A stretch of 64,000 bases of DNA from an uncultured Gemmatimonadaceae bacterium (GCA_963829055.1 CAWHHI010000016.1:864001-928000); one strand, 5' to 3'. Positions 3,182 through 64,000 are shown, counted from the first letter of the stretch. A program made the numbers and translations. Notes: generated by a model from the sequence alone, not told the origin.

Positions 3182-3781
3182 ATGGGCTTCATTGCGCTGC
3201 TCGTCGTTCTCGCACTGCTCGTCTTCTGGCTGATCGGCGCGTACAACAAGCTGATCGGCCTGAAGAACCAGGTCGCGAACGCGTGGAAGCAGATCGACGT
3301 GCAGCTCAAGCGGCGACACGACCTGATTCCGAACCTCGTGAACACCGTGAAGGGCGCGATGCAGTTCGAGCGCGAGACGCTCGAAGCGGTCGTGTCGGCG
3401 CGGAACAAGGCGATCCAGGTTCAGCAGGCTCCGGGCGACATCGGTGGCGCAGACGGCGGCCGCGGAATCGCAGCTGACGGGCGCGTTGAGCCGGCTGCTC
3501 GCGGTCGTCGAGTCCTATCCGGATCTCAAGGCGACCGGCAACGTCGCGCAGCTGCAGGAAGAGCTGACGTCCACCGAGAACAAGATCGCGTTCGCGCGGC
3601 AGCTCTACAACGACACGGCGACGCAGTACAACACGAAGCAGCAGCAGTTCCCGACGAATCTCGTCGCCGGCATGGCGGGCGCGTCGCCGGCGGAGCTCTG
3701 GGAGATCACCGACCAGGCGGAGCGCGCGGTGCCTAACGTCGATCTGTCGTTCGGAACGCCGCCGCGAGGACGGCGACGTAG
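3182..3781 (+). CDS. lemA: LemA family protein (frameshifted)
   Basis: [66 protein letters not shown]. Confidence 0.95.
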
Positions 3782-3884
3782 GGACTGGGGACTGGGGACT
3801 GGGGACTCGGCGGGACAGCGCTCCGCGCATCAGCGTCCGGCTCAGCCGTAGCTCCCAGTCCCCAGTCCCCAGTCCCCAGTCCCC
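3781..3884. repeat. Inverted heptamer arrays, (GGGGACT)x~4 ... (CCCCAGT)x~4
   Basis: Arrays at 3781-3807 and 3854-3884 are reverse complements and lie between lemA and htpX. Confidence 0.9.
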
Positions 3885-4928
3885 ATGTCTGACTTCGAAT
3901 CCACCAATCTCTTCGAGCAGCAGGACGCGAACCGGCGCCGGACGCGCTGGCTCGTCGTCGCGTTCATCGCGTTCTTCGCGCTGGCTCGGGTTCGGCGGCG
4001 ACTGGATTCTCTACGAGCTGACGCGCGGCGCGCCACCTAACGCGTATCGACACGTGTTTCCGTGGTTCGGGCATCGCGCTCACCGCGTTCGCCGGACTGC
4101 TCGCCGCGTACGCCTGGAAGACCGGGCCGAACAAGGTGCTGTGGTCCGCCGGCGCCCGCGAGATCGAGACCGCCGAGCGGCGACATGCCGAGACGCGGCT
4201 CGTGAACGTGGTGGAGGAGATGGCCATCGCGTCTGGCATGCCGCGGCCGCGCATCTGGCTCATCGCCGGACCCCGACCCGAACGCGTTCGCCACGGGACT
4301 CGACGCCGAGCACGCGCACATCGCCGTGACCGATGGGCTGCTGCGCGATGTGTAGCCGCGATGAGCTGCAGGCGGTGATCGCACACGAGATGGGGCACGT
4401 GAAGAATCTCGACGTGCGACTCATGACGTTTCTCGCCGCGCTCGTGGGCGCCGTCGCGCTCATGTCCGACGGCATGGGCCGCATGCTGCGCGGCGGCGCG
4501 CGATTCGGCGCGCTCACGGCGGCGGTCGCTCGCGCGACAAGCGCGACAACCTCGGGCCACTCGTGCTCGTGCTGATCGCGGTGTGGCTGCTCAGCTGGCT
4601 CATCGCGCCGTTCGTGACACGGCTGCTCGCGCTCGGCGTGAGCCGGAAGCGCGAGTTCCTCGCGGACGCGATGAGTGCGCAGTTCACGCGCAACCCGCTC
4701 GCGCTGGCGAGTGCGCTCGAGAAGATCGAGCACGCCGACGCGCCGACGATGTCGATCAAGCGCGGCAGCGCTCACCTGTGCATCGCGGACCCGTTAGGCA
4801 GGAAGGCATCACTCCGCGAAGGCACGCTCGCGGATATCTTCGGCACGCATCCACCCATGGCGATCCGCGTCGCGCGGCTCAAGGCGATGGGCTACCAGGA
4901 GGCCAAAGCCCTTTCGGCGAGCGCCTAG
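3885..4928 (+). CDS. htpX: HtpX-like M48 membrane zinc metalloprotease (frameshifted)
   Basis: NLFEQQDANRRRT, LVNVVEEMAIASGMPRP, PNAFATG, ELQAVIAHEMGHVKNLD, SRKREFLADA, THPPMAIRVARL. Typical lemA-htpX pair. Confidence 0.9.
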
Positions 4929-4974
4929 CTACAGACTGACGCTGGTTGCTGGGTGTGCGGTGCTGGTGGCTCAG

Positions 4975-6083
4975 CTAGGCGTTTGGGACGATGACGGCCT
5001 TGGTCACGTCCCTTCGCTCGACCGCCGCCAGCGCGTCGCCGGCGTGCGCCAGGTCGTAGCGGCCGCCGATCATCTCGCGCCACGGCACCCGGTCGCCGAA
5101 GCGCGCGGCAATCGCCACCGCGCGGTGAAAGTGCGAGTAGTCGCAGCCCCAGCAGCCGCGGATCTCCACGTGCTTGCGGTTCACCTGCCAGTGCGGATGG
5201 ATCTCGACCGGGCCGTTGTCCGTGTAGTGACCACAGATCACGACGCGTCCGCCGTCGCGCACGAGGTCCAGCGCCTGGCTCACGGCCGCCGGGCTTCCCG
5301 ACGCTTCGATCACGACGTCGACGCCGTGACCGCCCGTTAGGCGCCGCACCGCATCCGTCCGCTCGGCGGGTGGGACGTCGAGACCGAGCGTCGACGTCGC
5401 TCCCATGCGCGTCGCGAAGTCCAGGCGACTCGCCGGGATCGCCGACCGCGATGACCTCGCTGGCTCCCGAGAGCGCGGACAGCGCGATCGCCGACTGCCC
5501 CACCGGACCGGCGCCCAGCACGGCGACCGATTGCCCGAGGCGGATGCCCGCGAGGTCCACGGCGTGGAGCGACGTCACGAGGCCGCAGCCGCCGCCGATG
5601 AACGTCTCGGGATCCAACTGCTTCGGGAGATGAATGATCTTCACGCCGGGCCGCACATAGAGCGCCTGCGACCAGCCGCCCAGCAGTCCGTCGCTTCACG
5701 CCGTACGTGATGCCGTAGACCTTACGGTGCGGACAGCGCGTGGTCTGCTTCGTCACGAGGCAGTGGTAGCACGCGCCGCACGTCTCGTGCACGTCGAGAA
5801 ACGTGACGACGTCGCCTTCGTGGAACGCGTTGCCTTCGACGTCAGCGAGCGGGCCGCGAAGCTCCGCGATCGTCCCGACCGACACGTGCCCGGGAATGAG
5901 CGGGTACGGGACGCCCGACAGCTTGCCGTGATGGAGGTGCACGTCGGTCCCGCAGACCTCGGAGAACAGCACGTGGAGCAGCGCGGCGCCGGCATCGAGC
6001 GACGGCCGCGCGAACTCGACGACGCGGACGGGCTCGTTAGGCGCCGGGATTGTGGCGGCGAGAACGGACGACGAAGCGGCCAT
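4975..6083 (-). CDS. Zinc-binding alcohol dehydrogenase (MDR family)
   Basis: EVCGTDVH, IPGHV, CGACYHC...C, GAGPVG, GVDVVIEASG. Confidence 0.9.
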
Positions 6084-6251
6084 GATCTGAGTCGACGGTG
6101 AAAAGGGATGGGCGCCGTAAGGGCCGTAAGGAGGCAGACGACCCGCCGGCCGCAAGGGTGCGCCGGGGACTAGCCGGTCGCCGTGCACCACGCATCTTAG
6201 TCGACGTCAACAGAATACTGGTCCCTACCCTCACTGCCCGAGGTCCCGGAG

Positions 6252-6976: not shown

Positions 6977-7031
6977 CGGTCCGCCGATTTACCGATTCGC
7001 TCACCCTCGCGGCTGGCGTTAGGGTTCGAGC

Positions 7032-10327: not shown

Positions 10328-11474
10328 CTATGCCGCGTACTGGCGGCCGCGCCACGCGCGCGGCCGCCTAACGGTGGACAGCAACACGCGGAACACGGCA
10401 AGCGGGTCGGCGAATGGCGACAGCCAGAATGCCAGTCCGGGACGCTCGTACGAACCGGCTAGCGCGGCGAGCAACCCGACACGCATCAGCACGAACGCGG
10501 CGTTGATACCGATGAGCATGTCCATCGCGGTAGGCGACCCATGTGATGAGGCCCGCGGCGACTGCTGCCAGGATCGGGATGGGCAGCGCCTGAGCGAACA
10601 CGAGCAGAACAAGGTCGACGGCTTGCCGGACGCGCGACGTGGAATCGCGCAGGTCGATCGAGCGCCCCCACTCGCGCCACATCTGCCCTAACGACTCGTA
10701 CGCGCGGACGACGTACAGACGCGACCCGTCGAGGAAACCCACGCGGGCGCCTGACGCGGCGTAGTGACGAGCCAGCGTCACGTCGTCGCTGAACGAGCGT
10801 CGCGCGGGGGCGTAGCCTCCGCCTTCCGCAAGCAACGACGCGCGCGCGAGGAAGCACTGGCCATTGGCGAGCACGCGATCCGGCCGCGTGCCACGCCCAC
10901 CCGCGGCGCCGGTGCGATAGATGAGCGTCGTCAGCATCGCCGGCTGGACCCACTGCTCGGCGGGTGTCATGCCGGCGAACCGTGGCGCGAACGAGACCAT
11001 GTCGAAGCGGTTCGCGCGCGCGGCCTCGATCACGCCGGCGACGAGCCCCGGCCTCGGCTCCGTATCGGCGTCGATGCCAAGCAGCCACTCTCCGGTCGCG
11101 ACGGCGCGGCCACGCTCCAGCGCCCACACTTTCCCGATCCACCCCTCGGGGAGAGGACGATCGTCAATCAGGCGGAAGCGATCGTCGACCGCGCGCATGG
11201 CTTCGACCTGATCGCGCGTGTCGTCGGTCGACCCGCTGTCGATGACGATGATCTCGGTGAGCGGCGCGCCCTGCTGATGCAATCCCGCGAGGCACGGCCC
11301 GATCCGGCGTCCTTCGTTGAGCGTCGGCACGAGCACGCTGACCGTCGTGTCACTCGGGCCATCACGAATCGGCGAGACAGGGGGCGACCGTTTGCGTCCG
11401 CCCTTCAACCGCGACACCAGGAGCGCCAGGGCGATCGCCTGCAACGCGATGAGGATCGCCAGCGGATTCGTCAC
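10328..11474 (-). CDS. Family 2 glycosyltransferase, CruG-like (possible carotenoid glycosyltransferase)
   Basis: VSVLVPTLNE, IDSGSTDDT, LPEGWIGKVWAL, GIDADTEP, LANGQCF, SFSDDVTLAR, WREWGRSIDLRD. Confidence 0.85.
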
Positions 11475-11565
11475 GCCCTGGTCGACCGCACGGCGCCTGA
11501 TGCCGTACGACGCCGGCCGACACCCATCAGGGATGCCGGCCGGGGCCTAACGACGGAGATCAGCG

Positions 11566-15038: not shown

Positions 15039-15523
15039 GTGAGCACCACATGGCCGGCTTCTCTGGCGCGCGACTTCTCTCGTTATGGCGCATGCTCAGC
15101 CCGTGGCCCGGCGGCCGTTGGCTGTTCAGCGTCATCGTCGGCCGCACCGCGCCGTACACCGGGACCATCGGCGCGCGAATCATCGAGCTTCGACCCGGGC
15201 TACGCGCGCGCCGAGATGCGCGACCGTCGCATCGTGCGGAATCACCTCAAGTCCGTGCACGCCGTCGCGCTCGTGAACTTCGCGGAAGTGACGAGCGGGC
15301 TCGCGATGCTCACCGGGCTCCCACCGACATTGCGCGCGATCGTCGTCGGACTCTCGATCGACTATCTGAAGAAAGCCCGCGGCACGCTCGTCGCCGAGTC
15401 GACGGTGGATCTCCCGCCGATCACGGAATCGCGCGAGATCCAGATCCACGCGTCCATCCGCGACGCCGCCAGCGACGTCGTGGCGCGCGCGACCGTGCGG
15501 TGGCGCGTGGGCCCGGCGACTCG

Positions 15524-15527
<4 letters not shown>
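15039..15527 (+). CDS. Hotdog-fold / PaaI-like (DUF4442-type) protein
   Basis: [42 protein letters not shown]. Confidence 0.85.
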
Positions 15528-17191
<1,664 letters not shown>

Positions 17192-24726: not shown

Positions 24727-24733
24727 GCCCGCG

Positions 24734-43036: not shown

Positions 43037-43129
43037 TGAGCAGATGTTGAGAGCAGGCGATCTGGCTACAGAGCCGCCGCCTGCTCTCGACAGCCTAACG
43101 CGCAGTCCACTCGCGGGCGCAGTCCGGAC

Positions 43130-47027: not shown

Positions 47028-47039
47028 TCGGGATCCTCG

Positions 47040-47405
47040 TTAGGTGCGCGTGCGCACCACGTTGCGCACATACCACGCGGCAAGCAGCAGGAACGCGAAG
47101 ATCAGCACGGCACCCTGAATCGCCGCGCGCCACATGCCGGGAGCGAGTGCGTCAGCCGGCGCCGCGGCCGGGAGGGCAATGCAGAGTGCGCTGCCCACGA
47201 CGCCACAAACGATGAGCAGCAGAGGTCCCTTCTTCTCGATGCGCCAGACCGAGAGCGTCGCCGCTCCGGCGGCAACGGCAAACACCAGGGCCGCGGTCGC
47301 GACGAGCCACCACCGGTACCGCTCATCGCGCTCGGTGAGCATGCGAACGGCGAGCAGAAAGCCAGCCATCGTGTACACCGTCAGCAACGCCGCGAGTAGC
47401 TGCAT
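47040..47405 (-). CDS. Small integral membrane protein
   Basis: Four hydrophobic segments (MQLLAALLTVYTMAGFLLAV...). Confidence 0.65.
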   Translation of the reverse strand: MQLLAALLTVYTMAGFLLAVRMLTERDERYRWWLVATAALVFAVAAGAATLSVWRIEKKGPLLLIVCGVVGSALCIALPAAAPADALAPGMWRAAIQGAVLIFAFLLLAAWYVRNVVRTRT

Positions 47406-49522: not shown

Positions 49523-50789
49523 TCAGGCCTCTTTCCTAACGCCTGAGGCCTCCGGCCTCGCGATCACCGTCGTGGATGCCATGTGGCCCGTCACGTTCGC
49601 CAGCGTGTTGAACATGTCGGGAATGGTGTCGACCGCGATGAGAAGGCCGACGCCCTCCGGCGGCAGGCCGAGTGACACGAGCACCGGCGCGATCATGAAG
49701 AGGCTCGCGCTCGGAATGCCCGGCACGCTGAAGCTGATGAGCACCGCCGTGATCAGCACCCACACCAGCGCCGTGAATCCCACCGTCCACCCCGTAGAGC
49801 TGACCGAGGAACACCGCGCTGATCACCCAGCGCGGCGGGACGTTCATCCGGAGGACCGACACCGCGAGCGGCAGCGCGAAGCTCGTCGCCACCGGCGGCA
49901 GCAGCCAGACGGTCACGCGTCTCGCGCAGCATCGCCGGCAACGCCGCGAGCGACGATCGCGAGCTCATCGCCACCGCCTGCGCCGGTAACGCGGCGACCG
50001 CGAAGGAGCGCAGCGACACTCGGCCGAACAGCGAGCACCGGCATGTACAGCATCAGCCGTCACGAGCAGCAGCGTGGCCGACAAGCACGACGATGTAGAA
50101 CAGCAGCGCGCCCGCCGCCTGAATGCCCGTGCGCGCCGCAACCGACAGGGACAGCGCGAACACGCCGACCGGAGCAGCCGCGAGCACCCATCCGACGATC
50201 ACCAGCATGGCGTCGCTCACGCCACTGAAGAAGCCGACGATCGACGTCGCGCAGCGGCGGCGCGAGACGTGCGATGGCGAGCGCCAGCACCAGCGTGAAG
50301 ACGACGAGCGGCAGCATTGCGCCGTCCGCCGCCGCGCGAATGGGATTCGCGGGAACGTCTCGACGATGCGCTGCGCGAGCGACGGAAGCTGCTGCACCGC
50401 CGTCGACGGTCGACGACGCCGCCGTTGTGGCCGACGCCCGGAGGCGTTCCGCGACGTCAGGAGTGAGTGGAAGACGCGCCAGCAGCGGCGGCGCGATCGC
50501 GAGCGCGATCAGTCCGCCAAGCGACGAGCAGAACGGCGAACGTCACGAGCGCGCGCGCGCCGAGCCGACCGAGCGACCGCGAACCGAAGTCCGGTGACGA
50601 CGCCGGTGATGAGCACCGCAACGACCAGCGGCACGACGGTCATGCGAATGGCGTTGACCCACAGCGTGCCTAACGGCTCGATGATCGCGACGAGCCGCAG
50701 CACGCCCGGACTACGAGGTCGCGGCGGCGATGCTGCCGAGCACGAAGCCCGGCGACGAGCGCGGCGAGAACGTAGGTTGCGGATCTCAC
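49523..50789 (-). CDS. Dicarboxylate/amino acid:cation symporter (frameshifted)
   Basis: LWVNAIRMTVVPLV, SSRSSLAALP, FALPLAVS, SVPGIP, IAVDTIPDMFNTLANVTG. Confidence 0.9.
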
Positions 50790-51331: not shown

Positions 51332-52454
51332 CGCTCGAGGAAGATGGTCGCAACGCCGTCGGAGAGCGCGTCGATGGGAGCCGCGCCGCGATTGACGAGC
51401 ACGACCACCGTGAGGCCAACGTCAGGATATCGCTGGATCGCGGTGCGGAACCCTATGCTGTCACCCTCGTGACGTTGTCGTCGCTGGCCGCGAAAGCTGT
51501 CGAGGAACCACCCGAATCCGTACGACGTGCGCTCGCCTGACGCGAGGGTGGACGGCGTGGTTGCCGCCTGCGAAGCTCGCGGCGCTCAACACCGCGTTAT
51601 GCGCGAGGGCCGCACTCCAGTGTGCGAGCTCCTCGGCTGACGCGTAGATGCCGCCGTCGCCGAGGACTGCGCTGGTTCGGTTCTGATCGGTTCGCGTCCA
51701 CGCGCCCGACTGGCCCGAGTGACCGTAGGCGCGGTTGGCCACCGTGTCCACGCCCTCCTCGTGCGCGACGGCGGTCGGCATGCCCGCGCGATCAAACACT
51801 CGGTGTCGGAGGTATTGGGCGAACGACTCACCGGACACGCGCTCGACGATGAGCGCCAGGAGCGCGTAGCCGGAGTTGCTGTAGCGCCACGACGTACCCG
51901 GCGGGAAATACAACTTCTTCGCCCGATGGAGCAACGTCAGGACGTCACGATCCTTCGAGCTGAGGGCCGTCGTCGCTGCCGAGCAACACTTCGTAGTCGG
52001 GGATGCCGGACGTGTGCGCGAGGAGATGCCTAACGCGCACATCGCGGGCATAGACGGGCACGTCGTCGAGCACGTCCCCGACCCTGTCATCGAGGCGGAG
52101 CTTCCCTGCCTCCACCAGCGTGAGGATCGCCGCAGCCGTGAACTGCTTCGTCACCGACGCCAGTCGAAACGAAGTCGACGGCGTCACGCCGATGCCGTGC
52201 TCGACATCCGCGAGGCCGTACCCGCGCGCGAACACGATGGAATCCCCACGCGCCACGACGACCGCGGCGCCAGGCGCGCCCGGTTCAGCGAAGGCCGTGA
52301 ACAGCGCGTCCACGCGCGCCTGCTGGGCAGTGTCTACCGCCTCGCGCGACGACTGCGCCAGCACAGACTCGTGCGCTATGGACATCGCAGCGACAAACAG
52401 CGCGACCGACGTCGTGACGCGCCAGCCGCGATCATGCCGGCGCGCTGCGTTCAC
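51328..52454 (-). CDS. Serine hydrolase, beta-lactamase family
   Basis: FRLASVTKQF, LLAHTSGIPDY, YSNSGY, GDGGIY. Confidence 0.9.
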
Positions 52455-52936: not shown

Positions 52937-53482
52937 GGGAGATCGATCCGTTGAAGCGTTCAGGCGACCAGCGACGATCTTCGCGGTCGTCACGAGCTGG
53001 CCCGTGTGCCGGTGCGTATGCTCGGCCGCAGTGAAACAGCAGGCCGAGCACGTTGGATGGCAGAGCGCGGCGCGCCCGACCGACCGCGCGAGCATGAGGT
53101 CCGAATCGGGGTCGACGCGCAGCGACCTCGACGGCGGAGTCGATGGCGGTCTGCGCGACGCGACCAGCGTGGCAGCGGTGTCGGGCGGTTCGTCCCGGCT
53201 CAGCCTTCGGCACGCAGGAGCCAGCGATCTGCTCGCGATCGAGCTGCGCGCCGCGCGCGTACGTGAGCAGTCGGTCGAGGCTTCCGACAATGTGGCGCAG
53301 GTGAAAGCCGGCCGACGCCGCGCCGCCGGGCCGGCCCAGAGCTGCTCCGTCGTTAGGCGGGATGCCGCGGCTTCGATCTCCTCGCGGCACTGCAGCAGGC
53401 AGTGCGCCGCAGGCATGAGCAGCGGCGACACGCCCGGCAGCGGTCCGCGGAGCCAGACTTCGGGAAGCTGTTCGGAGCTCAT
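52933..53482 (-). CDS. DinB family protein
   Basis: PEVWLRGPL; GFHLRHIVGSLDRLLTYA; AEHTHRHTGQLVTT. Confidence 0.85.
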
Positions 53483-53533: not shown

Positions 53534-56500
53534 CTACTTCTGCGGCTTCTTCGACAGCGATCGGTAGTACTCGTCGACCATCTGCCGGAAGCCCGGCCGG
53601 CACGTCGCCCGACACCCCCGAGCACTGGGCCGACCCTTGTCGTTGCCTTCGACCTGGCGTCGGAGCGCAAACTCGAACGCCTTGAGCCCTTCGATCAGCG
53701 AATGCTGCAGCCGCTCGACCGACGCGGGATCATCGTAGTTCTTCCCGTTCTCGAGCTGACGCATCTGGTCGATCATCCGATTGAGATCCGACGGATCGAC
53801 GCCCATCTGCTGCAGCTCGCGCTTGAGCTGCTCCGCCGACTGGCGCTGATTCCGGAACTCACGCGAGAACTGGCGGATGTCGTCGGCGCTGAGGCGCGCC
53901 CGTTAGGCGTGCCCGCCCTGCTGCGTTGCCGCCGAGTCGACCACCGGGACCCTGCTGGTTGCTCTGCGAGCCACCACCACCCATCTGGCCGCCCTGTCCG
54001 CTGCTGCCACCCTGCTGACCGCCCTGTCCTTGCTGGCCCTGGCCCTGTTGACCCTGGCCTTGGCCCTGTTGTCCTTGCTGTCCCTGTCCTTGTTGCCCCT
54101 GCTGGCCCTGTTGCCCCTGGCCCTGCTGGCCGTTCTGGCCCTGCTGCTGACCACGTTGACCCTGCTGGCCACTCTGCCTTGCTGGCCACTCTGCTGTCCG
54201 CTCTGCCCCTGCTGGCCGTTCTGCTGTCCGTTCTGGGCGCTCTGTTGCCCTGCTGCCCGTTCTGTCCCTGCTGATTGCCCGGAGCGCCTCGCGAGCCCTG
54301 CGCGCCCGCGCGCGACGAATCCTCCTGATCGCCACCCTCGACCGAGTCGGCGCTGTCGCATCCGTTCGCTGAGCGACTCCTGGCCGCGCACGAGGTCGCG
54401 AGCTCGGTCGAGCGACTTGCTCGCCGCCTTGACCATCCGCCTCGCCGCGCGACGCGCGCCGCGGCCTCGTTCACCTTCTGACGCATCTCCTCGACGCCGT
54501 CGGTGATCGCCGACTCGAACTGCTTGGCGTACTCCGGCGACGTCGTCCCTGCACCAGCGCCTGCGTTAGGCGCTGGCGATGCCTGCACCCGATCGGCGAG
54601 CCGGTTCTCGCGCATCGACTCGACCGCCTCCTGCATCTTCCGCGACGCCTGTCCGCGTGGTCCTTCTGCGAGTCGCGCCGCATGCGATCGAGCTGGCGAC
54701 TCGAGCTGCCTAACGTCGTTCTCGATCCCTTCTGACGTCCTCGGCCAACCGATTCACCTTCCGCCGCGTCCGGCCTGCCGCTCGCGGCGCCCTTCCCGAG
54801 CTTGTCGACGTCATCCGGCAATCTGACGCTGATCGTTCGCGATCTTCTCGGCTTTCTGCACGGCGTCATCGAGGTCGCGCGCCGTGCGACCGTTGCGGTT
54901 CTCGTCGAGCAGTCGCCGCGCTTCCTGCAGTCGATCGAGCGCCGACGCGCCCTGCGAGACGCCGCCATCGTTCGCGCCGGTGGCCGAGCGACGCATGGCG
55001 TTCGCCGCATCCTGCAGGCGTCGCGCACTCTCCTCGATCTTGTCGTTGTTCGCGATCTGCGGATTCTCGCGCGTCGAGCCGCTCGAGCTGACGCGCCATC
55101 TGCTCGGCCTCGTCGGCGAGTTGGCGCTGACTCCCACCGCCACCGCCGCTCTGCTGGCCCGGCTGACCGCGCATGCCGTTCTTGAGACGCTCGTTCTCCT
55201 GCTGCAGTCGGCTCGAGAGCTGCTTCAGCTTCTCCGCCGTCTCGTCGACCTGGTTGTCGGCCTGCTGCTGCTGGCGTGCCGCGATCGACCGTCTCGTACT
55301 GATTGCGAAGCTTGTTCGCGTCGAGCTCGAACAGGTCGGCGAGATCCTCGGCGTTCGACTGCTTGTTGCCCGCCGCCACCGCCGCCGCTGTTGGCCGCGC
55401 GTAATCTGGTATTCCTTGAACGCCGCCTCGGCACGCTGCAGGTGCTGGAGCGCGCGCTGCTCGGGCGGAAGCGCGTCGACGGAATTGCGCGCGAGGAGCT
55501 TCTCCTCGGCGACCTGCATCTCCTTCGCGGCCTGCGGCAGCTCCTCGGCGATGATGCTGAACGCCGTGTCGATCGCCGTGATGTTGCGCTCCATCATGCG
55601 GCGCGACGAGCGTCTCGACCGCTTCGCGCACGCGCCCCTGCGAGAGGTTGAGCGTCGCGAAGTTCTCGCGCAGCCGGTTCGCGGGCGTCGTCTTGCGATC
55701 GCGGTCGACGTTGAACGTGCCGGCGACGACCTGACGCTGTCGCTCGGTCAGCTCGCCCGGATCGTCGGCCGCCACCACCGCCGCCGCCGCCGGCCTGCTC
55801 CGACTGCTTGTAGGTCTGGTCGAACGGCCTAACGCTCATGAAGTAGATGTCGGTCTTCGCTTCCTGACCGTTGCCGCCATTGTCGCGAGCGCGCGCGTAG
55901 TAGGACACGAGGTCGCCGGGCTTGAGGCCGAGCTCCTCGAGGAAGAACGTGTGTCCGGCGACGACTTCGCGGAGTCGCTTGCCTCCCGCCTGCAGCGACG
56001 ACCGTCTTCTCTGGCCCGCCGTTCACCGAGTACATGAGATCGATCGTTCGAGACGCCGTAGTCGTCGGTGGCCTGCACCTGCGTGAAGACCTCGTCCACC
56101 GCAGTGACCTTCGTGTCGCGCCCCGGCTTCTCGAACGTGATCGTCGGCGGCCGGTCGTCGAGCACGTCGATCGTGTAGTCGAGCGAGCCGGGAACGAACT
56201 CTCCGCGCTCGCGTCTGCAGCTCGAGCTTGTAGAAGCCGTTCGCGATCACCTGAATCGGCGCCGTGAGCGTGCCGTCGCCGTTCAGCGTGAGCGGCGTCG
56301 GCTCCTTGCCTTCGATGAGCAGCCGACCGCCCTTCACCGGCATGGTGCGTCGTCGCGTGCACGATGACCGTCGTTCCACGCGGCGCCGCGATGTCGCCGC
56401 CGTCCGGCAACGGTCTCCGACGGCATCCCGGTGTACCCGGGATAGCGATACTCGAGATCGATCTTCTTGACGTACGGCAGATTGGCGACGTCGATGCGGA

Positions 56501-57350: not shown

Positions 57351-57364
57351 CGTCGCTCTCCTGC

Positions 57365-59459
57365 CTAACGTGGAACCGCGATGCGCCGCGACAGCTGGTT
57401 CGAGAGCAAGGTCTCCCCCACCAGCAACAGCAGCACCGCAGCCAACAAGATACCACCAGAATCCCTGACGCCGTTCGAGCTCGACGGGCGTGGAGGCCTC
57501 GACGCCGACGACGCGGAGTCCGCCCCCGCGCGGGCGACCATCGCTCCCGTGAGCAGCTGCGGCTCGACCGCCGTCAGGTCCGACTCGGCGAGGTCGACGT
57601 TCACCGCAACCACTCGCGGCTCTCCGCGCGACCCCGCGCGCTGCAACTCGTAGAAGCCCTGCTCCGCCAAGCTCGACCGACCGTTTTGCTGTCCCCTCGA
57701 GACGTGTGCGCTCACCCGACGGTGCGACGACGACGTAGTCCGCCTTGTTCGCGGCGTCGCCCGACCCGGTGCTATCGCGAAAAATGGCCGGGAGGTTCGC
57801 GACCTGTCCAACCACGCTCCACGGCCGCTCGTCCGCATAGGCCGCGGCGTACTTCGCCATCTGATGTGCTACCGGGAGGAATACCGGCTGGAGCGGCAGG
57901 TCGTTCCAGATGCCGTCGAACGACGACGTCCAGACGAGCACGCGTCCGCGGCCGACCTTCCGCTCGAGCAACGCGATGTGTCCGTCGTCGAAGCGCGCGA
58001 GCTGTTCGTCGCCGGGCGCGGGGGTGACGCTGCGATAGCGGAAGAAGCGCGGCGTCGAGAAGTCACCGCTCCGCGGCGCGCTGAACAGCTCGAAGATCGG
58101 ATGACTCCGGTCGATGTAGCCGAGCGTGCCGCCACGATCGCCGCTGCGATCGATCGGCGCGTCCGCGGTGGCGGGCAGCAGCTGCTCGGCATACGCGGGC
58201 CGGTCACGCGGCGCGGCGCGGTCACCCATGGCGACGAGCAGTCCGCCACCGTTCTGCACGTACTCGACGAGTCGACGACCGAGCTCGCCACCAGGGAGAT
58301 CGGAATCGTTGAAGAGGATCAGCGATCGGCCGACGAAATCGGCCGCGGTCACGGAGCCGAGCCGCTTCGTCGTCACGCGGAAGTTCGGCTGCGATCCCGA
58401 TGCCGAGCGCACGCTCGACGTACAGACTGCGCGGCGCGCCGCCTTCGCGGTCGATCGATCACGAGAACCGACAGCGCCTGTCCGCGGGAGATCGCGAAGA
58501 AGAACGAGTTGTCTCGCGGCAACGCATCGTCGCGCGCTGCGCACGACACCACGCGTCGTGCCCGCCGGCAGTGGAGCGGCCGTGAACTCGACTGTCGCCG
58601 CGGCGTTCGCGGCGAGATTCACCTGCTTCGTCTCGAGCACGCGACCATTGAGCTCGAGCGTCACCGAGTGCCCGGTCTTCGCCTCGGCCGATCGGTTGAC
58701 GAGCCGGGCCGTGATCGCGACGCGCTCGCGATCCTCGGCGTAGTCGCGACGGAAGTCGACGCCCGTAACGGCAATGTTCGACGTCTTCGGTGTCCGCGAG
58801 ATCGACCTTGTTGATCGTTGTTCCGGACGGCACCGACGGCGAATCCCGCCCATCCCAGCCGACGCGCTGGAAGTCGGAGATGAGCAGGACCTCGCGCCGC
58901 GGCAGCTTGGAGTCGGCGAGGACGCGCTGCGCGAGCTTGAACGCCGGCTCGTAGCGGGTCGCGCCGGCGCTCGGCCTAACGCCGATCGAGCGACGTCGTC
59001 AGCACGGCCTTGTCGGCGGTCGGCTCGGTGGCGGCGGTCGCGGTCCGTCGAACAACACGAGGACGCGCGATCGTTCGCGCCAAGCCCGCCGATCGCCCGC
59101 TTGGCGGCATCGACGGCGCGCGTCCAGCGATCGCCGTAGCCATGCTGTACGAGCGATCGAGCAGGATCACGAGCTCACGCGCCCCGAGCGACCGCTGACG
59201 GGCGTCGCGGCGGCAGGCTCGGTTGAGGAACGGCCGAGCGAATGCGAGCGCGAGCAGGATCAGCGCGAGGCAGCGGAGCGCGAACAGCAGCCAGTGCCGG
59301 ATACGTTGGCGGCGCACCGCCTGATACGGGATGCGACTCAGGAACATCAGCGACGGGAAGACGACGACGTCCTTCCGCTCCTTGTGCGTGAGGTGCACGA
59401 GGATCGGAACGGCGAGGGCGACGAGCCCGGCGAAGAAACAGTGGCGCGAGGAAAGACAT
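57365..59459 (-). CDS. BatA-domain / vWA membrane protein (frameshifted)
   Basis: MSFLAPLF..LAVPILVHL..FPSLMFL..LAFARP; LLDRSYSM; LISDFQ; WNDLPLQPVF; AVNVDLAESD; C-terminal TM. Confidence 0.85.
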
Positions 59460-60369
59460 TACCGCACCCGCGTCAGGAACTGACGCCGCGAAAGGAACGC
59501 GAACAACGCGTGGTCGAGCGGCATCGACGTGTCGAACAGCTGGTAGTCGACGCCCTGATCGCCGCAGAGCTGCTCGATCTCGGCGATGTGCGCGCGGATC
59601 ATCGTGCGGTACTGGTCGCGCAGATATTCCGGAATCACCGGGAATGCGCTCACCGGTCTCGATGTCCTCGAAGCTCGTGGCACCGTCGTACGGGAACTCG
59701 AGCTCCGCCGTGTCGAGGACGTGCATCGCCATGATGTCGTTGCCGCGGCCGCGCAGCTGCGCGAACGCGTCGAGGATCTTGCGCGGATCCTCGTAGAAAT
59801 CGGAGATGACGAGCAGCATGCTGCGCCGCTTGAACTGCTCGGCGAGCTTGCGGAACACGCGCTCGATGTTCCCCGCGCGCTGCGGCGTCGCACGCGCGAG
59901 CGCGTGCAGCACGTTAGGCAGGTGCTTCGCCGACGGCGGCACGATCTCGACGACGTCCTCGTCCAACGTGATGAGCCCGACGCGGTCGCGCTGCTGGTTC
60001 GAGAAGTAGGCGAGGCACGCGGCGAGCGTGCGCGCGTAGTCGAGCTTCGTCACGGTGCCGCTGCCGAAGCTCATGGACTTCGAGACGTCGAGCAGCACGT
60101 TGAAGTTCGTGTTGGTGTCGGCCTCGTATTCCTTGATGTAGTAGCGGTCGACGCGCCCGTAGAGCCGCCAGTCGATGCGCCGAATGTCGTCGCCGGGCAT
60201 GTACTGCCGGTGCTCCGCGAAGTCGATCGATGTGCCGAGATGCGGCGACCGATGGAGACCGCCGAGAAACCCCTCGACGACGCGTGCGCGCGACGAGCTC
60301 GAGGTTCCCGATCCGCGCGAGGACGGCCGGATCGAGGAACTGGATCCCGGGGAGGGGTTGTTGGCTCAC
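59459..60369 (-). CDS. DUF58 family protein
   Basis: FAEHRQYMPGDDIRRIDWRLY; LLDVSKSM; VISDF. Confidence 0.92.
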
Positions 60370-61632: not shown

Positions 61633-62372
61633 GTGCGTCAGTCCGTACGTGACATAGTTGACGGCGAACTTGTACGCGTCGTTCGTCAGGTTCACCGGAT
61701 ACAGATCATCGTTCGACCACTCCATGTAGTCGCCGATGTCGTTGTTGTAGTTGATGATCACCATCAACCGCTTCGTCCGGGTCGTTGTCCTCGAAGATGC
61801 CGTGGAACTCCGCCTGGATCGACGGGCGGTTCGGGTACGTCATCGCGAGCGACTCGAGATGGAAGAACGAATCGAACACCGGATGCGACACGTCCATCGG
61901 AACGATCTGAGCGCCGGGGAGCACCCGCAGCATCTGCTCCTCGAAGTTGAGCCACTCGCCGCCCCATGAAGTCGTCCACAATGAGGAAGCCACCTTGAGC
62001 AGATACTCACGCAGTCCCTTTGCTTCCGCATCGTTCATCACCCAGTAGCCGGGCTCCGACAGGTACGCGATCGGGAACTTGTACAGCTCCGGGTCATCCA
62101 GGTTGTGGATGTTGCTGCCATCCACGCGCGGGTTGATGCTCGTGATCTCCTTCAACGACCTTCATGAAGTGCCGCTCCATCGCCGGGTAATCGTACGACC
62201 ATCCGGCACTTCGGACTTCCTGATACCGCAGTCGCACGAACGTGAATCGCCCGTCGTACGGCACGTTAGGCTCCACGAACACGCGTCTCCGCCCGCCGAA
62301 CCCCTGCGCGAGGAGCGGAGCGGCCGCGACGATGGCCGCGAGAGCGATGAGGCGACGTCGACGCACGAGCAC
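61630..62372 (-). CDS. DUF4159 family protein (paralog 1)
   Basis: [51 protein letters not shown]. Confidence 0.85.
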
Positions 62373-62408
62373 GTTAGGTACGGGAATCGAGACCTCGATC
62401 GTTGGAGC

Positions 62409-62470
62409 GTGATGGCTGATAGCTGGATGGCTGATGGCTACGATGGCTGATGGCTGATGGCTGCGTGGCT
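62409..62470. repeat. Degenerate (GATGGCT)n heptamer array
   Basis: GATGGCTGATAGCTGGATGGCTGATGGCTACGATGGCTGATGGCTGATGGCT. Confidence 0.85.
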
Positions 62471-62523
62471 GAATCCGGCATGATGGCCAGATCGCCTGCT
62501 CTCAGCATGCTACGTCCGCTCCA

Positions 62524-63294
62524 CTAGTGCGTCAACGCGTACATGACGTAGTTCACGCCGAGCTGGTACGCCTCGTTCGTCAGGTCGATCGGGAGAAATC
62601 CCTGATCCGACCACTGCCACGCGTCGCCCATGTCGTTGTTGTAGTTCGCGATCACCATGAGACGCTTGGTCGGATCGTTGTTCTCGAAGATGCCGAGGTA
62701 CTGGACCGGCGGTCCGTAGATCCCGGGTTGCTGCAGATCCTCCTCATCGATGCGGAAGAACGAATCCCACACCGGGTGGTCCGGCGTCGACCGGCACCCA
62801 CTGCGCCTCGGGCAGCACGCGCTTCATCTGCTCCTGCAGGTTGTACCAGTGCTGAACACGCGGAAGTCGTCGATGATCATGAAGCCGCCCTTGAGGAGAT
62901 AGTCGTGAACGTTCTTCACGTCTTCGTCCGTCGGCTGCCAGTACCCGGGCTCCGAGAAGTACAGCGATCGGAGACCGCATGATCTCCGGATTCCCGAAGT
63001 CGAGCACGTTGCTCGAGTCCTGCCGCGGCTTCAGATACGACATCTCGGACAGGATCTTCATCGAGATGCCGCTCGGCCGTCGGATAGTCGTGCATCCAGC
63101 CCGGGCCCTTCGTTCGTCATGCCGCCGTAGCCGGGATAGCGGAGCCGCGTGAACGTTAGGCGCCCGTCGTACGACGGGTTGCCTTCGACCGGGAGGTCGC
63201 CGCCAAGAAAGCGTCGCTGCGCAGACAGCGTCACCGACGCGACGCCAATGAGCGCCAGACCCACGTACCGTCCGTACCGCCGCTGGAATTTCAT
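62524..63294 (-). CDS. DUF4159 family protein (paralog 2)
   Basis: YDGRLTFTRLRY, WMHDYP, EPGYW, GIFENNDPTKRLMVIANYNNDMGD, YALTH*. Confidence 0.85.
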
Positions 63295-64000
63295 GTCAGT
63301 CGCCTCCGCCTCCCGATCGGTTCGCCCTCTGCAGCCGGAGCAGAAGCTCCTGCGCCTTCTCGAAGTTCGGTGCATCCTCGAGCGCCCGCAGCACCTCGCG
63401 CCGCGCCGCCTGTGCTTCGCCCGCCTGGTAGTACGCGAGCGCGAGCTGATACAACGCCTCGGCGCGATCCACCGGGATTCAGCGCGACGACCGCCAACCG
63501 CTCACGCACCGTTCTCGGCTTGTCACCCGAGCCGACCGTAGAGGTTCGCGAGCCTAACGTGCAGCGCGCGCATCGTACGGCGAGATGAACATCGCGCGAT
63601 CGAGCGCCGCGGCGGCGCCCGCGCGTGTCGCCGAGTTGCTCGAGGACGGTCGCGAGCTCGACGTTCGCCGCGTAGTTGATCCTCGTTGCGAATCGTCAGC
63701 GCCGTCAGCTCCGCGGCTTCCGCGCGCGCGTTGCCCTTGGCCTTGTACGCCTGCGCCAGGAACCAGTACGGACTCTGCGCGCTCGCGTCCTCCGGGAACA
63801 GCGCCTTCGCCTGTCTCGAGCGCGGTGATCGCCTCGTCGTAGTTCTTCGTCTCGAACGCGCCGATGCCCGCGCGACAGTGCCCGCATGTATTCGCCGTCG
63901 ACGGCGGGTGCGCGCACCGCCGCATCGCCGCGCACGTCCTTCGGCTCGACCGCGGCGAGCCCCTTCGCGAACCGCTCCTTCAGGTACGCGTCGAACTTCG
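63291..64000 (-). CDS. TPR-containing protein, C-terminal part (runs off window end)
   Basis: AFETKNYDEAITALE, AQSPYWFLAQAY, EALYQLALAYYQAG, APNFEKAQELLLRL. Confidence 0.8.

What the first reader, a model, noticed from the sequence alone, without database searches (positions are those of the whole stretch)
3732..63559. Highly iterated non-palindromic motif CGTTAGG(C) / (G)CCTAACG: candidate DNA-uptake-sequence-like or HIP1-like genomic signal
SEEN: I counted 49 exact copies by eye, about 1 per 1.3 kb. CGTTAGG on + (27 copies): 4792, 5335, 6035, 7017, 15522, 15736, 21842, 24721, 29042, 30499, 30776, 33160, 33603, 35503, 36159, 37279, 37309, 44936, 45120, 47038, 53351, 53901, 54564, 59912, 62264, 62372, 63154. 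CCTAACG on + (22 copies): 3732, 4036, 10367, 10687, 11546, 25776, 28245, 31161, 34098, 38951, 39754, 43094, 43129, 46093, 49535, 50669, 52029, 54709, 55828, 57364, 58975, 63553. Of these, 38 extend to the 8-mer CGTTAGGC. Assuming 68% GC and independent bases, about 7 heptamers and 2-3 octamers are expected on both strands. TTAG/CTAA looks rare outside this motif, and the few other occurrences are mostly one-base variants (e.g. 12692, 38554, 48670). KNOWN: Neisseria DUS and Pasteurellaceae USS are non-palindromic, occur in both orientations at roughly 1 per kb and sit inside genes. Chi and KOPS are strand-polarised. Cyanobacterial HIP1 is palindromic. INFERENCE: the balanced orientation argues against Chi/KOPS and favours an uptake sequence, a methyltransferase/repair-driven iterated motif, or a nucleoid-protein site. 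I do not know of such a motif described for this lineage.
Basis: partly seen in the sequence, partly recalled or inferred. Interest (0 to 1): 0.9.

Follow-up and report, generated by a model that had tools for sequence, protein, structure and literature searches.

The report
Genome-wide iterated octamer in Gemmatimonadaceae
An eight-letter DNA word, CGTTAGGC, is written about once per 1.2 kb into genes and spacers throughout this soil bacterium's genome and its relatives', much like the DNA uptake tags of Neisseria and Haemophilus, and it has not been described for this phylum in the papers I could search.

Summary
The window holds 49 CGTTAGG and 38 CGTTAGGC, against 2.6 and 1.1 in shuffles. 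The 7.78-Mb genome, a Gemmatimonadaceae MAG, holds 6391 and 5004. CGTTAGGC is the genome's most over-represented octamer: 49x over an order-2 Markov model and 11.7x over synonymous-codon shuffles.

- **Placement:** it lies on both strands, in every reading frame and between genes. It shows no replichore polarity and no conserved flanks.
- **Origin:** sites arise by point substitution inside conserved genes. In rpoB, Leu CTC/CTG becomes the rare TTA.
- **Conservation and spacing:** sites are kept twice as well as their surroundings and avoid each other below 200 bp.
- **Foreign DNA:** three blocks of foreign-looking DNA carry no copies.
- **Phylogeny:** the trait fills whole clades of the family. 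Dialects exist: CGTTAGGC, CGTCAGGC and CGT(G/C)AGGC.
- **Rivals tested:** no DNA methyltransferase family, RecBCD/AddAB or integron integrase tracks the trait.

My best reading, at about 0.4, is a DUS/USS-like self tag kept up by biased DNA uptake and recombination.

Unexpectedly, the T dialect is identical to the R' core of integron attC sites in this order. The genomic copies themselves are not attC sites.

The parts
3732..3738 (-). motif copy ACGTTAGGCA; in predicted CDS, antisense, CCT-AAC-G
4036..4042 (-). motif copy GCGTTAGGTG; in predicted CDS, sense, xxC-GTT-AGG
4792..4798 (+). motif copy CCGTTAGGCA; in predicted CDS, sense, xCG-TTA-GGC (Leu TTA)
5335..5341 (+). motif copy CCGTTAGGCG; in predicted CDS, antisense, xxC-CTA-ACG
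6035..6041 (+). motif copy TCGTTAGGCG; in predicted CDS, sense, xxC-GTT-AGG
7017..7023 (+). motif copy GCGTTAGGGT; between predicted CDS
10367..10373 (-). motif copy CCGTTAGGCG; its TAG is the stop of the glycosyltransferase ORF 10368-11474 (-)
10687..10693 (-). motif copy TCGTTAGGGC; in predicted CDS, sense, Leu TTA
11546..11552 (-). motif copy TCGTTAGGCC; between predicted CDS
15522..15528 (+). motif copy TCGTTAGGCT; its TAG is the stop of a predicted CDS
15736..15742 (+). motif copy GCGTTAGGCC; between predicted CDS
21842..21848 (+). motif copy TCGTTAGGGT; its TAA (opposite strand) is the stop of the M48 peptidase ORF 21844-22641 (-)
24721..24727 (+). motif copy GCGTTAGGCC; its TAG is the stop of a predicted CDS
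25776..25782 (-). motif copy TCGTTAGGCT; inside the M1 peptidase ORF, sense, xxC-GTT-AGG
28245..28251 (-). motif copy TCGTTAGGTC; between predicted CDS
29042..29048 (+). motif copy TCGTTAGGCG; in predicted CDS, sense, Leu TTA
30499..30505 (+). motif copy GCGTTAGGCA; in predicted CDS, sense, Leu TTA
30776..30782 (+). motif copy GCGTTAGGCC; in predicted CDS, sense, Leu TTA
31161..31167 (-). motif copy GCGTTAGGCG; in predicted CDS, antisense, xxC-CTA-ACG
33160..33166 (+). motif copy CCGTTAGGCG; between predicted CDS by my crude caller (lies in the frameshifted isocitrate/isopropylmalate dehydrogenase region)
33603..33609 (+). motif copy CCGTTAGGCA; in predicted CDS, sense, Leu TTA
34098..34104 (-). 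motif copy CCGTTAGGCA; in the Iso_dh ORF, antisense, CCT-AAC-G
35503..35509 (+). motif copy TCGTTAGGCG; in predicted CDS, antisense, CCT-AAC-G
36159..36165 (+). motif copy TCGTTAGGCA; between predicted CDS
37279..37285 (+). motif copy TCGTTAGGAC; its TAG is the stop of ORF 36532-37284 (+)
37309..37315 (+). motif copy GCGTTAGGTG, 30 bp after the previous one; its TAA (opposite strand) is the stop of ORF 37311-37691 (-)
38951..38957 (-). motif copy CCGTTAGGCG; between predicted CDS
39754..39760 (-). motif copy TCGTTAGGCA; its TAG is the stop of a predicted CDS
43094..43100 (-). motif copy GCGTTAGGCT; between predicted CDS
43129..43135 (-). motif copy GCGTTAGGTC; its TAG is the stop of ORF 43130-43606 (-)
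44936..44942 (+). motif copy ACGTTAGGCT; in the BTAD regulator ORF, antisense, CCT-AAC-G
45120..45126 (+). motif copy ACGTTAGGCC; in the BTAD regulator ORF, antisense, xxC-CTA-ACG
46093..46099 (-). motif copy TCGTTAGGCG; in the BTAD regulator ORF, sense, Leu TTA
47038..47044 (+). motif copy TCGTTAGGTG; its TAA (opposite strand) is the stop of ORF 47040-47405 (-)
49535..49541 (-). motif copy GCGTTAGGAA; present in G000 only among 7 congeners at this aligned place
50669..50675 (-). motif copy CCGTTAGGCA; conserved at the homologous place in all 7 genomes of the genus
52029..52035 (-). motif copy GCGTTAGGCA; in predicted CDS, sense, xxC-GTT-AGG
53351..53357 (+). motif copy TCGTTAGGCG; between predicted CDS
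53901..53907 (+). motif copy CCGTTAGGCG; between predicted CDS
54564..54570 (+). motif copy GCGTTAGGCG; between predicted CDS
54709..54715 (-). motif copy ACGTTAGGCA; between predicted CDS
55828..55834 (-). motif copy GCGTTAGGCC; its TAA (opposite strand) is the stop of a predicted CDS
57364..57370 (-). motif copy ACGTTAGGCA; in predicted CDS, sense, Leu TTA
58975..58981 (-). motif copy GCGTTAGGCC; between predicted CDS
59912..59918 (+). motif copy ACGTTAGGCA; in the DUF58 ORF, antisense, CCT-AAC-G
62264..62270 (+). motif copy ACGTTAGGCT; between predicted CDS
62372..62378 (+). motif copy ACGTTAGGTA; between predicted CDS
63154..63160 (+). motif copy ACGTTAGGCG; between predicted CDS
63553..63559 (-). 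motif copy ACGTTAGGCT; in predicted CDS, sense, xxC-GTT-AGG

Best explanation
CGTTAGGC, in full (G/T)CGTTAGGC(G), is a signature kept up at the DNA level rather than the protein level. It characterises a large clade of Gemmatimonadaceae. I think it most likely works like the DNA uptake sequences of Neisseriaceae (DUS) and Pasteurellaceae (USS). In that model a component of the transformation machinery prefers DNA fragments that carry the word. Fragments from kin are therefore taken up and recombined more often, and this bias writes the word into every tolerant place in the genome (molecular drive). Shown here: hyper-abundance, independence from reading frame and strand, origin by point substitution, above-background conservation, mutual avoidance at short range, absence from foreign-looking DNA, clade-wide inheritance and single-base dialects.
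For: 1. Abundance and background. There are 6391 heptamers and 5004 octamers. The octamer is 49x over an order-2 Markov model and is the top 8-mer of the genome. Predicted CDS hold 4197 copies against 359 +/- 14 in synonymous-codon shuffles.
2. Placement. Copies occur in all frames, on both strands and between genes: 1692 intergenic, 1598 as xCG-TTA-GGC, 1237 as CCT-AAC-G, 786 as xxC-CTA-ACG, 554 as xxC-GTT-AGG and 524 at stop codons. There is no information beyond positions -3 to +8. Of 2794 TTA codons, 1604 lie in the motif.
3. Origin. Sites appear by substitution at homologous positions. In rpoB the conserved A/P-L-G tripeptides read xCG-CTS-GGC in all 9 motif-poor genomes and xCG-TTA-GGC in up to 14 motif-rich ones. 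rpoB carries 0 copies in 9 of 9 poor genomes and 1 to 10 copies in 19 richer ones.
4. Maintenance. Over 197 kb aligned at 81% identity, 87 of 152 G000 sites and 87 of 148 G005 sites are identical in the other species. The figure for any 7-column window is 27%.
5. Spacing. There are 408 gaps under 200 bp where an exponential model expects 978, and gaps of 500 to 1000 bp are 1.3x in excess. This fits a signal that counts per DNA segment, not per site.
6. Foreign DNA. Blocks of 49.6, 44.1 and 31.5 kb hold no copy. They carry housekeeping genes. The one block tested (C6:25441-45440) matches congeners only in 67-72% patches, against 76-83% synteny for the window.
7. Phylogeny and dialects. All 7 genomes of the genus are rich, and 15 of 301 genomes of the order hold 1000 or more copies. 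A well-supported rpoB clade of 13 rows is entirely rich or intermediate. Counts for the T/C/G variants are: G127 3896/212/370, G044 191/2387/2254, G207 85/2094/1537 and G240 858/1928/401. The top 9-mers in G044 are TCGTGAGGC and TCGTCAGGC.
8. Machinery. A type IV pilus locus, ComEC and DprA are present.
Against: No uptake experiment exists, and no cultured member of the motif-rich clade is known to me. ComEC is found in motif-poor genomes as well (5 of 5), so the competence genes do not discriminate. The ComP_DUS family gave no significant match in motif-rich genomes; the only match over its cut-off is in motif-poor G016. A pilus-cluster protein that I tested as a candidate receptor is present in rich and poor genomes alike (64 of 80). 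Inverted pairs, typical of Neisseria DUS at terminators, are not enriched: 64 inverted against 88 direct within 100 bp, both below random expectation. The identity of the T dialect with the integron attC R' box is not predicted by a plain uptake model. Every pattern listed as support would also follow from any other reader that acts on DNA segments.
Confidence: 0.4

Rival explanations
1. The word is read by the integron integrase or a related tyrosine recombinase. The genome is seeded with integron core sites that serve as decoys, landing pads or recombination points.
For: GTTAGGC fits the integron core site GTTRRRY and GCCTAAC fits the inverse core RYYYAAC (passages of PMC3053210). In motif-poor genomes of family f2 the octamer is the R' end of textbook attC hairpins. 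In three loci, 33 of 39 copies (38 of them on the array strand) sit 92-135 nt after G(C/T)CTAAC, in one-strand arrays at roughly 550 bp spacing. One array lies next to an integrase gene. G000 has an integron integrase at C20:208041-208958, scoring 265.7 bits against a cut-off of 265. Beside it lie attC-like hairpins ending in GCGTTAGG(C/T). Integrases are common in the order: 59 of 80 genomes.
Against: Integrase presence does not follow the trait. Motif-poor G155, G007, G008, G016, G042 and others have one; motif-rich G002, G004, G215, G283, G258 and G270 gave none at E <= 1e-30. The C and G dialects (GTCAGGC, GTGAGGC) lose the GTT of the GTTRRRY core consensus (that this triplet is required for cleavage is recalled), yet they are just as abundant in g32 and g53. 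The genomic copies are not attC sites. None of the 49 window copies is hit by an attC covariance model (the two weak window hits lie elsewhere), and none is hit in 51 kb of G014. The flanks carry no information. Efficient insertion targets should be purged from essential genes, yet rpoB of G014 holds 10 copies.
Confidence: 0.15
2. HIP1-like: a motif kept abundant by a cognate DNA methyltransferase, by a sequence-specific repair bias, or by both.
For: HIP1 of cyanobacteria is likewise an 8-mer at about one per gene, in all frames, conserved and quasi-periodic, and it has cognate methylases (abstracts of PMC5861425 and PMC13756078; passages). The commonest alternative allele, CGTCAGG, differs by a single C/T transition (15 of 126 unshared sites), as deamination of a modified C would give.
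Against: G000 and G127 gave no match to N6_N4_Mtase, N6_Mtase or the C5 DNA_methylase family. The motif-poor genomes G155 and G016 carry more of these genes. The D12-class enzyme is present in G000, G127 and G155 and absent from G014 and G016. The motif is not palindromic. A site-autonomous repair bias does not predict the deficit of short spacings. G000 is only 86% complete and other methyltransferase families were not searched.
Confidence: 0.12
3. A binding site for a chromosome-organising or nucleoid-associated protein, selected for regular coverage of the chromosome.
For: The spacing is even at the kilobase scale, orientation is balanced, and sites are conserved.
Against: No candidate protein was found. 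Known systems of this kind use few sites or polar ones. Nothing in this reading predicts the dialects or the loss of the trait in sister lineages (G155 within g46; G098 beside G270).
Confidence: 0.12
4. A Chi-like recombination hotspot that protects the cell's own DNA from a RecBCD/AddAB-type nuclease.
For: Chi sites are lineage-specific, over-represented 5-8-mers (recalled). G000 has an AddAB-like pair of PDDEXK_1 matches at C15:11673-16010.
Against: There is no replichore polarity: 201:159 and 246:248. RecC is absent from 5 of 5 genomes. PDDEXK_1 is absent from motif-rich G270 and G127 but present in motif-poor G155. A 49-fold enrichment is far above that recalled for any Chi.
Confidence: 0.03
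5. Not a real feature: the result of chance, codon usage, a dispersed repeat or a base-calling artefact.
For: The assembly has frameshifts: rpoB, Iso_dh and the D12 methylase are split.
Against: The shuffle, Markov and codon-aware controls all pass. The flanks are not conserved, so it is not a repeat element. Independent MAG assemblies and 7 species share the word. No single-base neighbour of the octamer is expected to be frequent enough to be a miscalled 'true' word.
Confidence: 0.01

Closest known systems
DNA uptake sequences: DUS of Neisseriaceae and USS of Pasteurellaceae
   Same: A short, non-palindromic word at about 1 per kb, on both strands, inside genes in several frames and between them. 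It is shared by related genera with single-base dialects (title and abstract of PMC3630211), more evenly spaced than chance (recalled for USS), and missing from imported DNA (abstract of PMC7371117).
   Different: The phylum is different (Gemmatimonadota, uncultured). The word is 8 bp rather than 9-12. No ComP_DUS-type receptor was found, and there are no inverted pairs at gene ends. Uptake has not been tested. The trait is absent from many genera of the same family.
HIP1 (GCGATCGC) of cyanobacteria
   Same: An octamer, 15- to 300-fold over-represented, at up to more than one per gene, conserved and quasi-periodic (abstract of PMC5861425). It has recently been proposed to act as an uptake tag (passages of PMC13756078).
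   Different: HIP1 is palindromic and has cognate methylases. This word is not palindromic, and no methyltransferase family tracks it.
Integron attC/attI core site (GTTRRRY, inverse core RYYYAAC)
   Same: The T dialect is letter for letter the R' box of attC sites in this order, including the preceding C: 31 of 31 aligned attC sites end in CGTTAGGC.
   Different: The genomic copies have no partner arm, no hairpin and no cassette. They arise by substitution inside core genes. Their abundance does not follow integrase presence, and the other dialects break the GTT.
Chi and KOPS/AIMS
   Same: Over-represented oligomers that differ between lineages.
   Different: Those are strand-polarised with replication. 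This word is not.

Membership tests
DNA uptake sequence (DUS/USS) | Short word hyper-abundant at about 1 per kb, with both orientations about equal | tested here: met
   There are 6391 copies at 0.82 per kb. Per-contig counts on the two strands are near equal. The enrichment is 49x.
DNA uptake sequence (DUS/USS) | Present in coding DNA in several frames and in non-coding DNA, beyond what codon usage explains | tested here: met
   Six frame classes plus intergenic copies. Predicted CDS hold 4197 copies against 359 in codon shuffles. rpoB is recoded towards the word.
DNA uptake sequence (DUS/USS) | Shared by related genera, with dialects | tested here: met
DNA uptake sequence (DUS/USS) | Depleted in recently imported DNA | tested here: met
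   Three motif-free blocks of 31-50 kb that lack synteny to congeners. They sit at contig ends, so chimeric assembly is an equal reading.
DNA uptake sequence (DUS/USS) | Competent cells prefer DNA that carries the word | not testable with these tools
   This needs uptake or transformation assays.
DNA uptake sequence (DUS/USS) | Transformation machinery is encoded | tested here: met
   PilQ, PilMNOP-like genes, pilins, ComEC and DprA are present. ComEC is also present in motif-poor genomes, so this does not discriminate.
DNA uptake sequence (DUS/USS) | A dedicated receptor of the ComP_DUS type (Neisseria) | tested here: not met
   The best match in G000 has E = 0.31. The only match over the cut-off is in motif-poor G016.
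HIP1-type iterated palindrome | A palindromic word | tested here: not met
   CGTTAGGC differs from its reverse complement.
HIP1-type iterated palindrome | Cognate DNA methyltransferases | tested here: inconclusive
   No PF01555, PF02384 or PF00145 match in G000 or G127. PF02086 does not track the trait. Other families and base modification itself were not tested.
Chi / KOPS | Orientation polarised with replication | tested here: not met
   201:159 and 246:248 across the skew switch at about 550 kb on contig 16.
Chi | A RecBCD or AddAB reader | tested here: not met
   RecC is found in 0 of 5 genomes. PDDEXK_1 is absent from motif-rich G270 and G127.
Integron attC site | An imperfect hairpin from the RYYYAAC inverse core to the GTTRRRY core, 57-141 bp long, in one-strand arrays beside intI | tested here: not met
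   Not met for the genomic copies: 0 of 49 window copies are hit by the attC model, the flanks carry no information, and close inverted pairs are depleted. Met for the arrays in G027, G083 and G025. Weakly met for G000 C20:198-208 kb.

The most novel reading that the evidence does not exclude
The uptake or recombination tag of this clade was borrowed from the integron. In this reading the cell's DNA receptor recognises the attC R-box CGTTAGGC, so cassette arrays, which carry one such box per cassette, are imported preferentially from the environment. The same bias then wrote the integron core site thousands of times into the cell's own genes. That would tie natural transformation and integron cassette capture into one system. 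It would also make Gemmatimonadaceae the first lineage outside Proteobacteria with a sequence-specific uptake tag.
Probability: 0.1. Interest if true: 0.95.

Novelty: new variant of a known kind. Interest (0 to 1): 0.8.

Why it matters
Sequence-specific uptake tags are textbook cases known from only two proteobacterial families, and the function of the third comparable signal, cyanobacterial HIP1, is still debated. This finding adds a fourth, independent case in an abundant but barely cultured soil phylum. In practice the word is a sharp marker for foreign or chimeric DNA in these MAGs. It accounts for 57% of the rare TTA codons in predicted genes (1604 of 2794). It will also mislead integron-finding tools that key on the core site. 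If the link to the integron core is causal, it joins two major routes of gene acquisition.

Tried and rejected
1. **Unrelated motifs in other lineages.** Several loci seemed to carry their own words: GGGAGTAGG, AGAGTTGA and AGCCACTA. These are short tandem heptamer arrays, and a REP-like repeat in L077. True dialects were found later at position 4 of the same word.
2. **Another word in motif-poor sisters.** I sampled 80-120 kb each of G155, G098, G139 and G008. No dispersed word reaches the 44x seen in the G005 control. G098 has GTCGAGCAG at 30 against 3.0 expected, which I leave open.
3. **Methyltransferase profiling** on a 5-genome panel gave no family that tracks the trait.
4. **ComP_DUS** gave nothing significant in motif-rich genomes.
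5. **Candidate receptor.** The 383-aa protein of the pilus minor-pilin cluster has homologues in 64 of 80 genomes, rich and poor alike.
6. **Integrase profiling.** Matches occur in 59 of 80 genomes, with no relation to motif density.
7. **My simple arm-complementarity score for attC sites** was too crude; its best score was 15 of 24. I replaced it with a covariance model.
8. **Special enrichment at stop codons.** 303 of 902 TAA stops and 254 of 1924 TAG stops lie in the word. That matches the genome-wide shares of TAA (31%) and TAG (12%) in the word, so there is no extra enrichment.
9. **Maximal-order Markov ranking** hides the word, because its sub-words are themselves made by it. Order-2 is the informative background.
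10. **Literature.** There was no hit for either strand of the octamer as a whole word, none for 'DNA uptake sequence' plus 'Gemmatimonad', and none in PMC2843746. Earlier notes of this scan returned nothing.

Full report
**Observation.** CGTTAGG occurs 49 times in the window, 27 on + and 22 on -, against 2.58 in dinucleotide-preserving shuffles (largest 9). The octamer CGTTAGGC occurs 38 times against 1.09. The window is G000:C16:864001-928000 of a 7.78-Mb, 20-contig assembly with 66.7% G+C. Every contig carries the word at 0.64 to 1.09 per kb. In total there are 6391 heptamers and 5004 octamers.

Of 8933 TTAG in the genome, 6391 lie in the word. In the window the figure is 49 of 69. Against an order-2 Markov model the octamer is 49-fold enriched and ranks first of all 8-mers; the next ranks are its own overlapping extensions. 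A maximal-order Markov model hides it, because its sub-words exist almost only inside it.

**Anatomy.** Aligning all copies gives (G/T)CGTTAGGC(G). There is no information outside positions -3 to +8, so this is not a dispersed repeat element. Position 8 is C in 78% of copies. One-off variants that are themselves enriched are TGTTAGGC (14.8x), CGTTAGGT (17x), CGTTAGGG (9x), CGTTATGC (7.7x) and CGTCAGGC (2.1x).

I wrote a crude gene caller: codon log-odds on ORFs, 7423 calls, 77% coding. With it the copies fall as follows:

| Class | Copies |
|---|---|
| Between genes | 1692 |
| Sense xCG-TTA-GGC | 1598 |
| Antisense CCT-AAC-G | 1237 |
| Antisense xxC-CTA-ACG | 786 |
| Sense xxC-GTT-AGG | 554 |
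| Supplying a TAA or TAG stop | 524 |

The shares at stops (303 of 902 TAA stops, 254 of 1924 TAG stops) equal the genome-wide shares of TAA and TAG that lie in the word. Stops are therefore not special. The motif contains 1604 of 2794 TTA codons. Shuffling synonymous codons within each gene leaves 359 +/- 14 copies where 4197 are observed.

Orientation is balanced. Contig 16 has a switch in GC skew and gene strand near 550 kb. The counts are 201:159 on one side and 246:248 on the other.

**Spacing and gaps.** The mean gap is 1201 bp. Gaps under 200 bp number 408 where an exponential model expects 978, and gaps of 500-1000 bp are 1.3-fold in excess. Close inverted pairs are not favoured: 64 inverted against 88 direct within 100 bp.

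Three blocks have no copy at all: C6:5440-55038, C11:0-44055 and C6:591808-623330. They encode ordinary housekeeping enzymes. The one block I tested, C6:25441-45440, matches congeners only in scattered 67-72% patches, whereas the window is syntenic at 76-83%. All three blocks touch contig ends, so they are either imported DNA or chimeric joins. Either way the word marks the lineage's own DNA.

**Who has it.** Titles of related loci place the genome in Gemmatimonadaceae/Gemmatimonadales. Several of those independent MAG loci have the same word as their top 8-mer: L001 12 against 0.26 expected, L002 7 against 0.16, L003 9 against 0.18. That rules out a base-calling artefact, although this assembly does have frameshifts.

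All 7 genomes of the genus hold 2501 to 5112 octamers, and G014 of another genus holds 6360 in 5.1 Mb. Of 301 genomes of the order, 15 hold 1000 or more. Most hold fewer copies than the reversed-word control. Those two tallies include four genomes flagged unpublished (G013, G094, G212, G266), all motif-poor. No other claim rests on them.

I built a quick maximum-likelihood rpoB tree of 31 rows with SH-aLRT support. One row, G169, picked a wrong ORF and is disregarded. A clade with 98% support holds 13 rows, all rich or intermediate: g1, g9, g16, g51, g44, g54, g48 and g38. A second clade, g45 plus g46, is also all rich. Motif-rich G270 sits beside motif-poor G098. Within g46, G155 has 66 copies while 4 congeners have 3244 to 4141. 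The trait is therefore mainly inherited, with a few gains or losses.

**Dialects.** Whole-genome counts of CGTTAGGC / CGTCAGGC / CGTGAGGC are:

| Genome (genus) | T | C | G |
|---|---|---|---|
| G000 | 5004 | 1763 | 717 |
| G014 (g9) | 6360 | 785 | 316 |
| G127 (g46) | 3896 | 212 | 370 |
| G240 (g16) | 858 | 1928 | 401 |
| G093 (g41) | 452 | 1549 | 432 |
| G044 (g32) | 191 | 2387 | 2254 |
| G137 (g32) | 110 | 1514 | 1899 |
| G207 (g53) | 85 | 2094 | 1537 |

Reversed-word controls for the C and G variants lie at 173-347 in the genomes of g32, g53, g16 and g41. In motif-poor genomes those two variants sit at about their control. In 120 kb of G044 the top 9-mers are TCGTGAGGC (38 against 3.3) and TCGTCAGGC (30 against 2.5). 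The family word is therefore CGT-N-AGGC, with a lineage-specific choice at N. Four motif-poor genomes sampled at 80-120 kb show no dispersed word of comparable strength.

**How copies arise and persist.** In a 7-species alignment of part of the window, copies appear by substitution at homologous positions. At window 49668, G000 reads GCCGAGTG where four congeners read GCCTAACG. The copy at 50669 is shared by all seven.

Over 197 kb aligned between G000 and G005 at 81% identity, 87 of 152 and 87 of 148 sites are identical in the partner, against 27% for any 7-column window. Unshared sites differ at 1/2/3/4/5-or-more bases in 31/42/34/14/5 cases. The commonest alternative is CGTCAGG, in 15 cases.

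In rpoB, the 9 motif-poor genomes have no copy, and 19 richer ones have 1 to 10, in step with genome-wide density. At conserved A/P-L-G tripeptides the poor genomes read xCG-CTC/CTG-GGC and up to 14 rich ones read xCG-TTA-GGC. That is a two-step synonymous change to the rarest Leu codon. A few changes alter the protein: F to L, K to R and D to N. The force therefore acts on DNA, overrides codon preference, and reaches essential genes.

**The integron connection.** In motif-poor f2 genomes the few octamers cluster on one strand at roughly 550 bp spacing. I fetched three such places, and 33 of 39 copies (38 on the array strand) end a 92-135 nt hairpin that begins G(C/T)CTAAC. These are attC sites as the literature defines them: RYYYAAC inverse core, GTTRRRY core, 57-141 bp (passages of PMC3053210). 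All 31 aligned sites end in CGTTAGGC. A covariance model built from them finds further copies beside the integrase gene of G027.

G000 has an integron integrase at C20:208041-208958, scoring 265.7 bits against a cut-off of 265; Pfam finds Phage_integrase plus the SAM-like domain. Beside it lie hairpins ending GCGTTAGG(C/T), two of which the model hits weakly at E = 0.04 and 0.37. The T dialect is thus the integron R' box of this order.

The genomic copies, however, are not attC sites. None of the 49 window copies is hit by the model, and none in 51 kb of G014. Integrases are found in 59 of 80 genomes, rich and poor alike, and are missing from several rich ones. The C and G dialects break the GTT of the core. 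I therefore report the identity as shown and a causal link as open.

**Other readers tested.**
- *Methyltransferases.* On a 5-genome panel (rich G000, G014, G127; poor G155, G016), motif-rich G000 and G127 gave no match to the N6_N4, N6 or C5 families. The poor genomes gave several. The D12 family is present in G000, G127 and G155 only.
- *Helicase-nucleases.* RecC is absent from 5 of 5 genomes. PDDEXK_1 (AddAB/RecB) is absent from motif-rich G270 and G127.
- *Transformation genes.* ComEC is in 5 of 5 genomes. DprA and a type IV pilus locus are present in G000: a PilQ secretin with AMIN domain, PilMNOP-like genes, two pilins and three minor pilin-like genes.
- *Receptor candidates.* ComP_DUS is not found in motif-rich genomes. 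A pilus-cluster protein does not discriminate.

**Reading.** Eight patterns fit the uptake sequences of Neisseriaceae and Pasteurellaceae more closely than any other known system, with HIP1 second:
- hyper-abundance;
- balanced strands;
- independence from reading frame;
- recoding of core genes;
- above-background conservation with turnover;
- mutual avoidance at short range;
- absence from foreign DNA;
- clade-wide inheritance with dialects.

I put 0.4 on a DUS/USS-like tag kept up by biased uptake and recombination. The rivals are a recombinase-related role (0.15), a methylation or repair drive (0.12), a nucleoid protein site (0.12), Chi (0.03) and an artefact (0.01). The rest I leave for something not yet thought of.

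**Literature.** I found nothing on this word or on uptake sequences in this phylum. The library lacks most subscription journals, so an earlier description cannot be excluded.

Noticed in passing
window 3781-3807 and 3854-3885; 61552-61583; 61607-61631; 62410-62472; also L011:1829-1870, 9385-9433, 12647-12667; L009; L006; L013:11960-11995: There are short perfect tandem arrays of heptamers between genes: (GGGACTG)x3.9 and its reverse complement x4.6 47 bp apart, (ATCGGGA)x4.6 and (TGATGGC)x8.4. Related MAGs have the same kind of array with other units: GGGAGTA, GAGAGTT, AGCCACT, AGAAAGC in G155 and TACTGAG in G207. This looks like a family-wide intergenic feature with lineage-specific units.
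   Followed up: partly
G000 C20:197000-218500 (L181 covers 196001-212000): An integron integrase lies at 208041-208958 (-). On its low side, 12 of 15 GTTAGG copies point to the - strand and several end attC-like hairpins. On its high side, 11 of 12 copies between 209.8 and 218.2 kb point to the + strand, without the conserved arm. The orientation switches at the integrase gene.
   Followed up: partly
L172 (G027:C95:1-20000), L173 (G083:C3), L174 (G025:C3), L177 (G027:C80): These are large chromosomal integron cassette arrays in motif-poor Gemmatimonadales. They have very uniform attC sites of 92-135 nt, and one array has at least 26 cassettes in 20 kb. Integron integrases are found in 59 of 80 genomes of the order that I surveyed.
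   Followed up: yes
G000 C6:5440-55038, C6:591808-623330, C11:0-44055: Three blocks at contig ends carry no motif copy. They hold housekeeping genes: trpA/B-like, DAHP synthase, GreA, glutamine synthetase and ilvD. The one tested, C6:25441-45440, shows only patchy 67-72% similarity to congeners. They are probably chimeric joins or large imports, and the bin is rated at 3.95% contamination.
   Followed up: partly
window 32342-34541, 9426-10321, 11613-12487; G000 C19:47991-52509; C8:134909-135647: Genes are split between frames: isocitrate/isopropylmalate dehydrogenase, alanine dehydrogenase, an S9 peptidase, rpoB and a D12 methylase. The assembly carries indel errors, which also lowers its completeness score (86%).
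   Followed up: partly
L208-L213 (G098, 120 kb sampled): The motif-poor sister of G270 has a dispersed GTCGAGCAG/CTGCTCGAC at 30 copies against 3.0 expected, in 21 of 60 two-kb bins. This may be codon-driven (Leu-Leu-Asp) or a weaker iterated word of its own.
   Followed up: no
G000 genome-wide: The tetramers GGGG/CCCC stand at 0.19 of the base-composition expectation. TCGA, GATC and CGAT are 2.7- to 3.3-fold over it.
   Followed up: no
L077:5131-17020: An Acidobacteriaceae MAG locus has 7 copies of a longer dispersed repeat, GTAGGGGCGCAGCA(T/C), REP-like and mostly on one strand.
   Followed up: no
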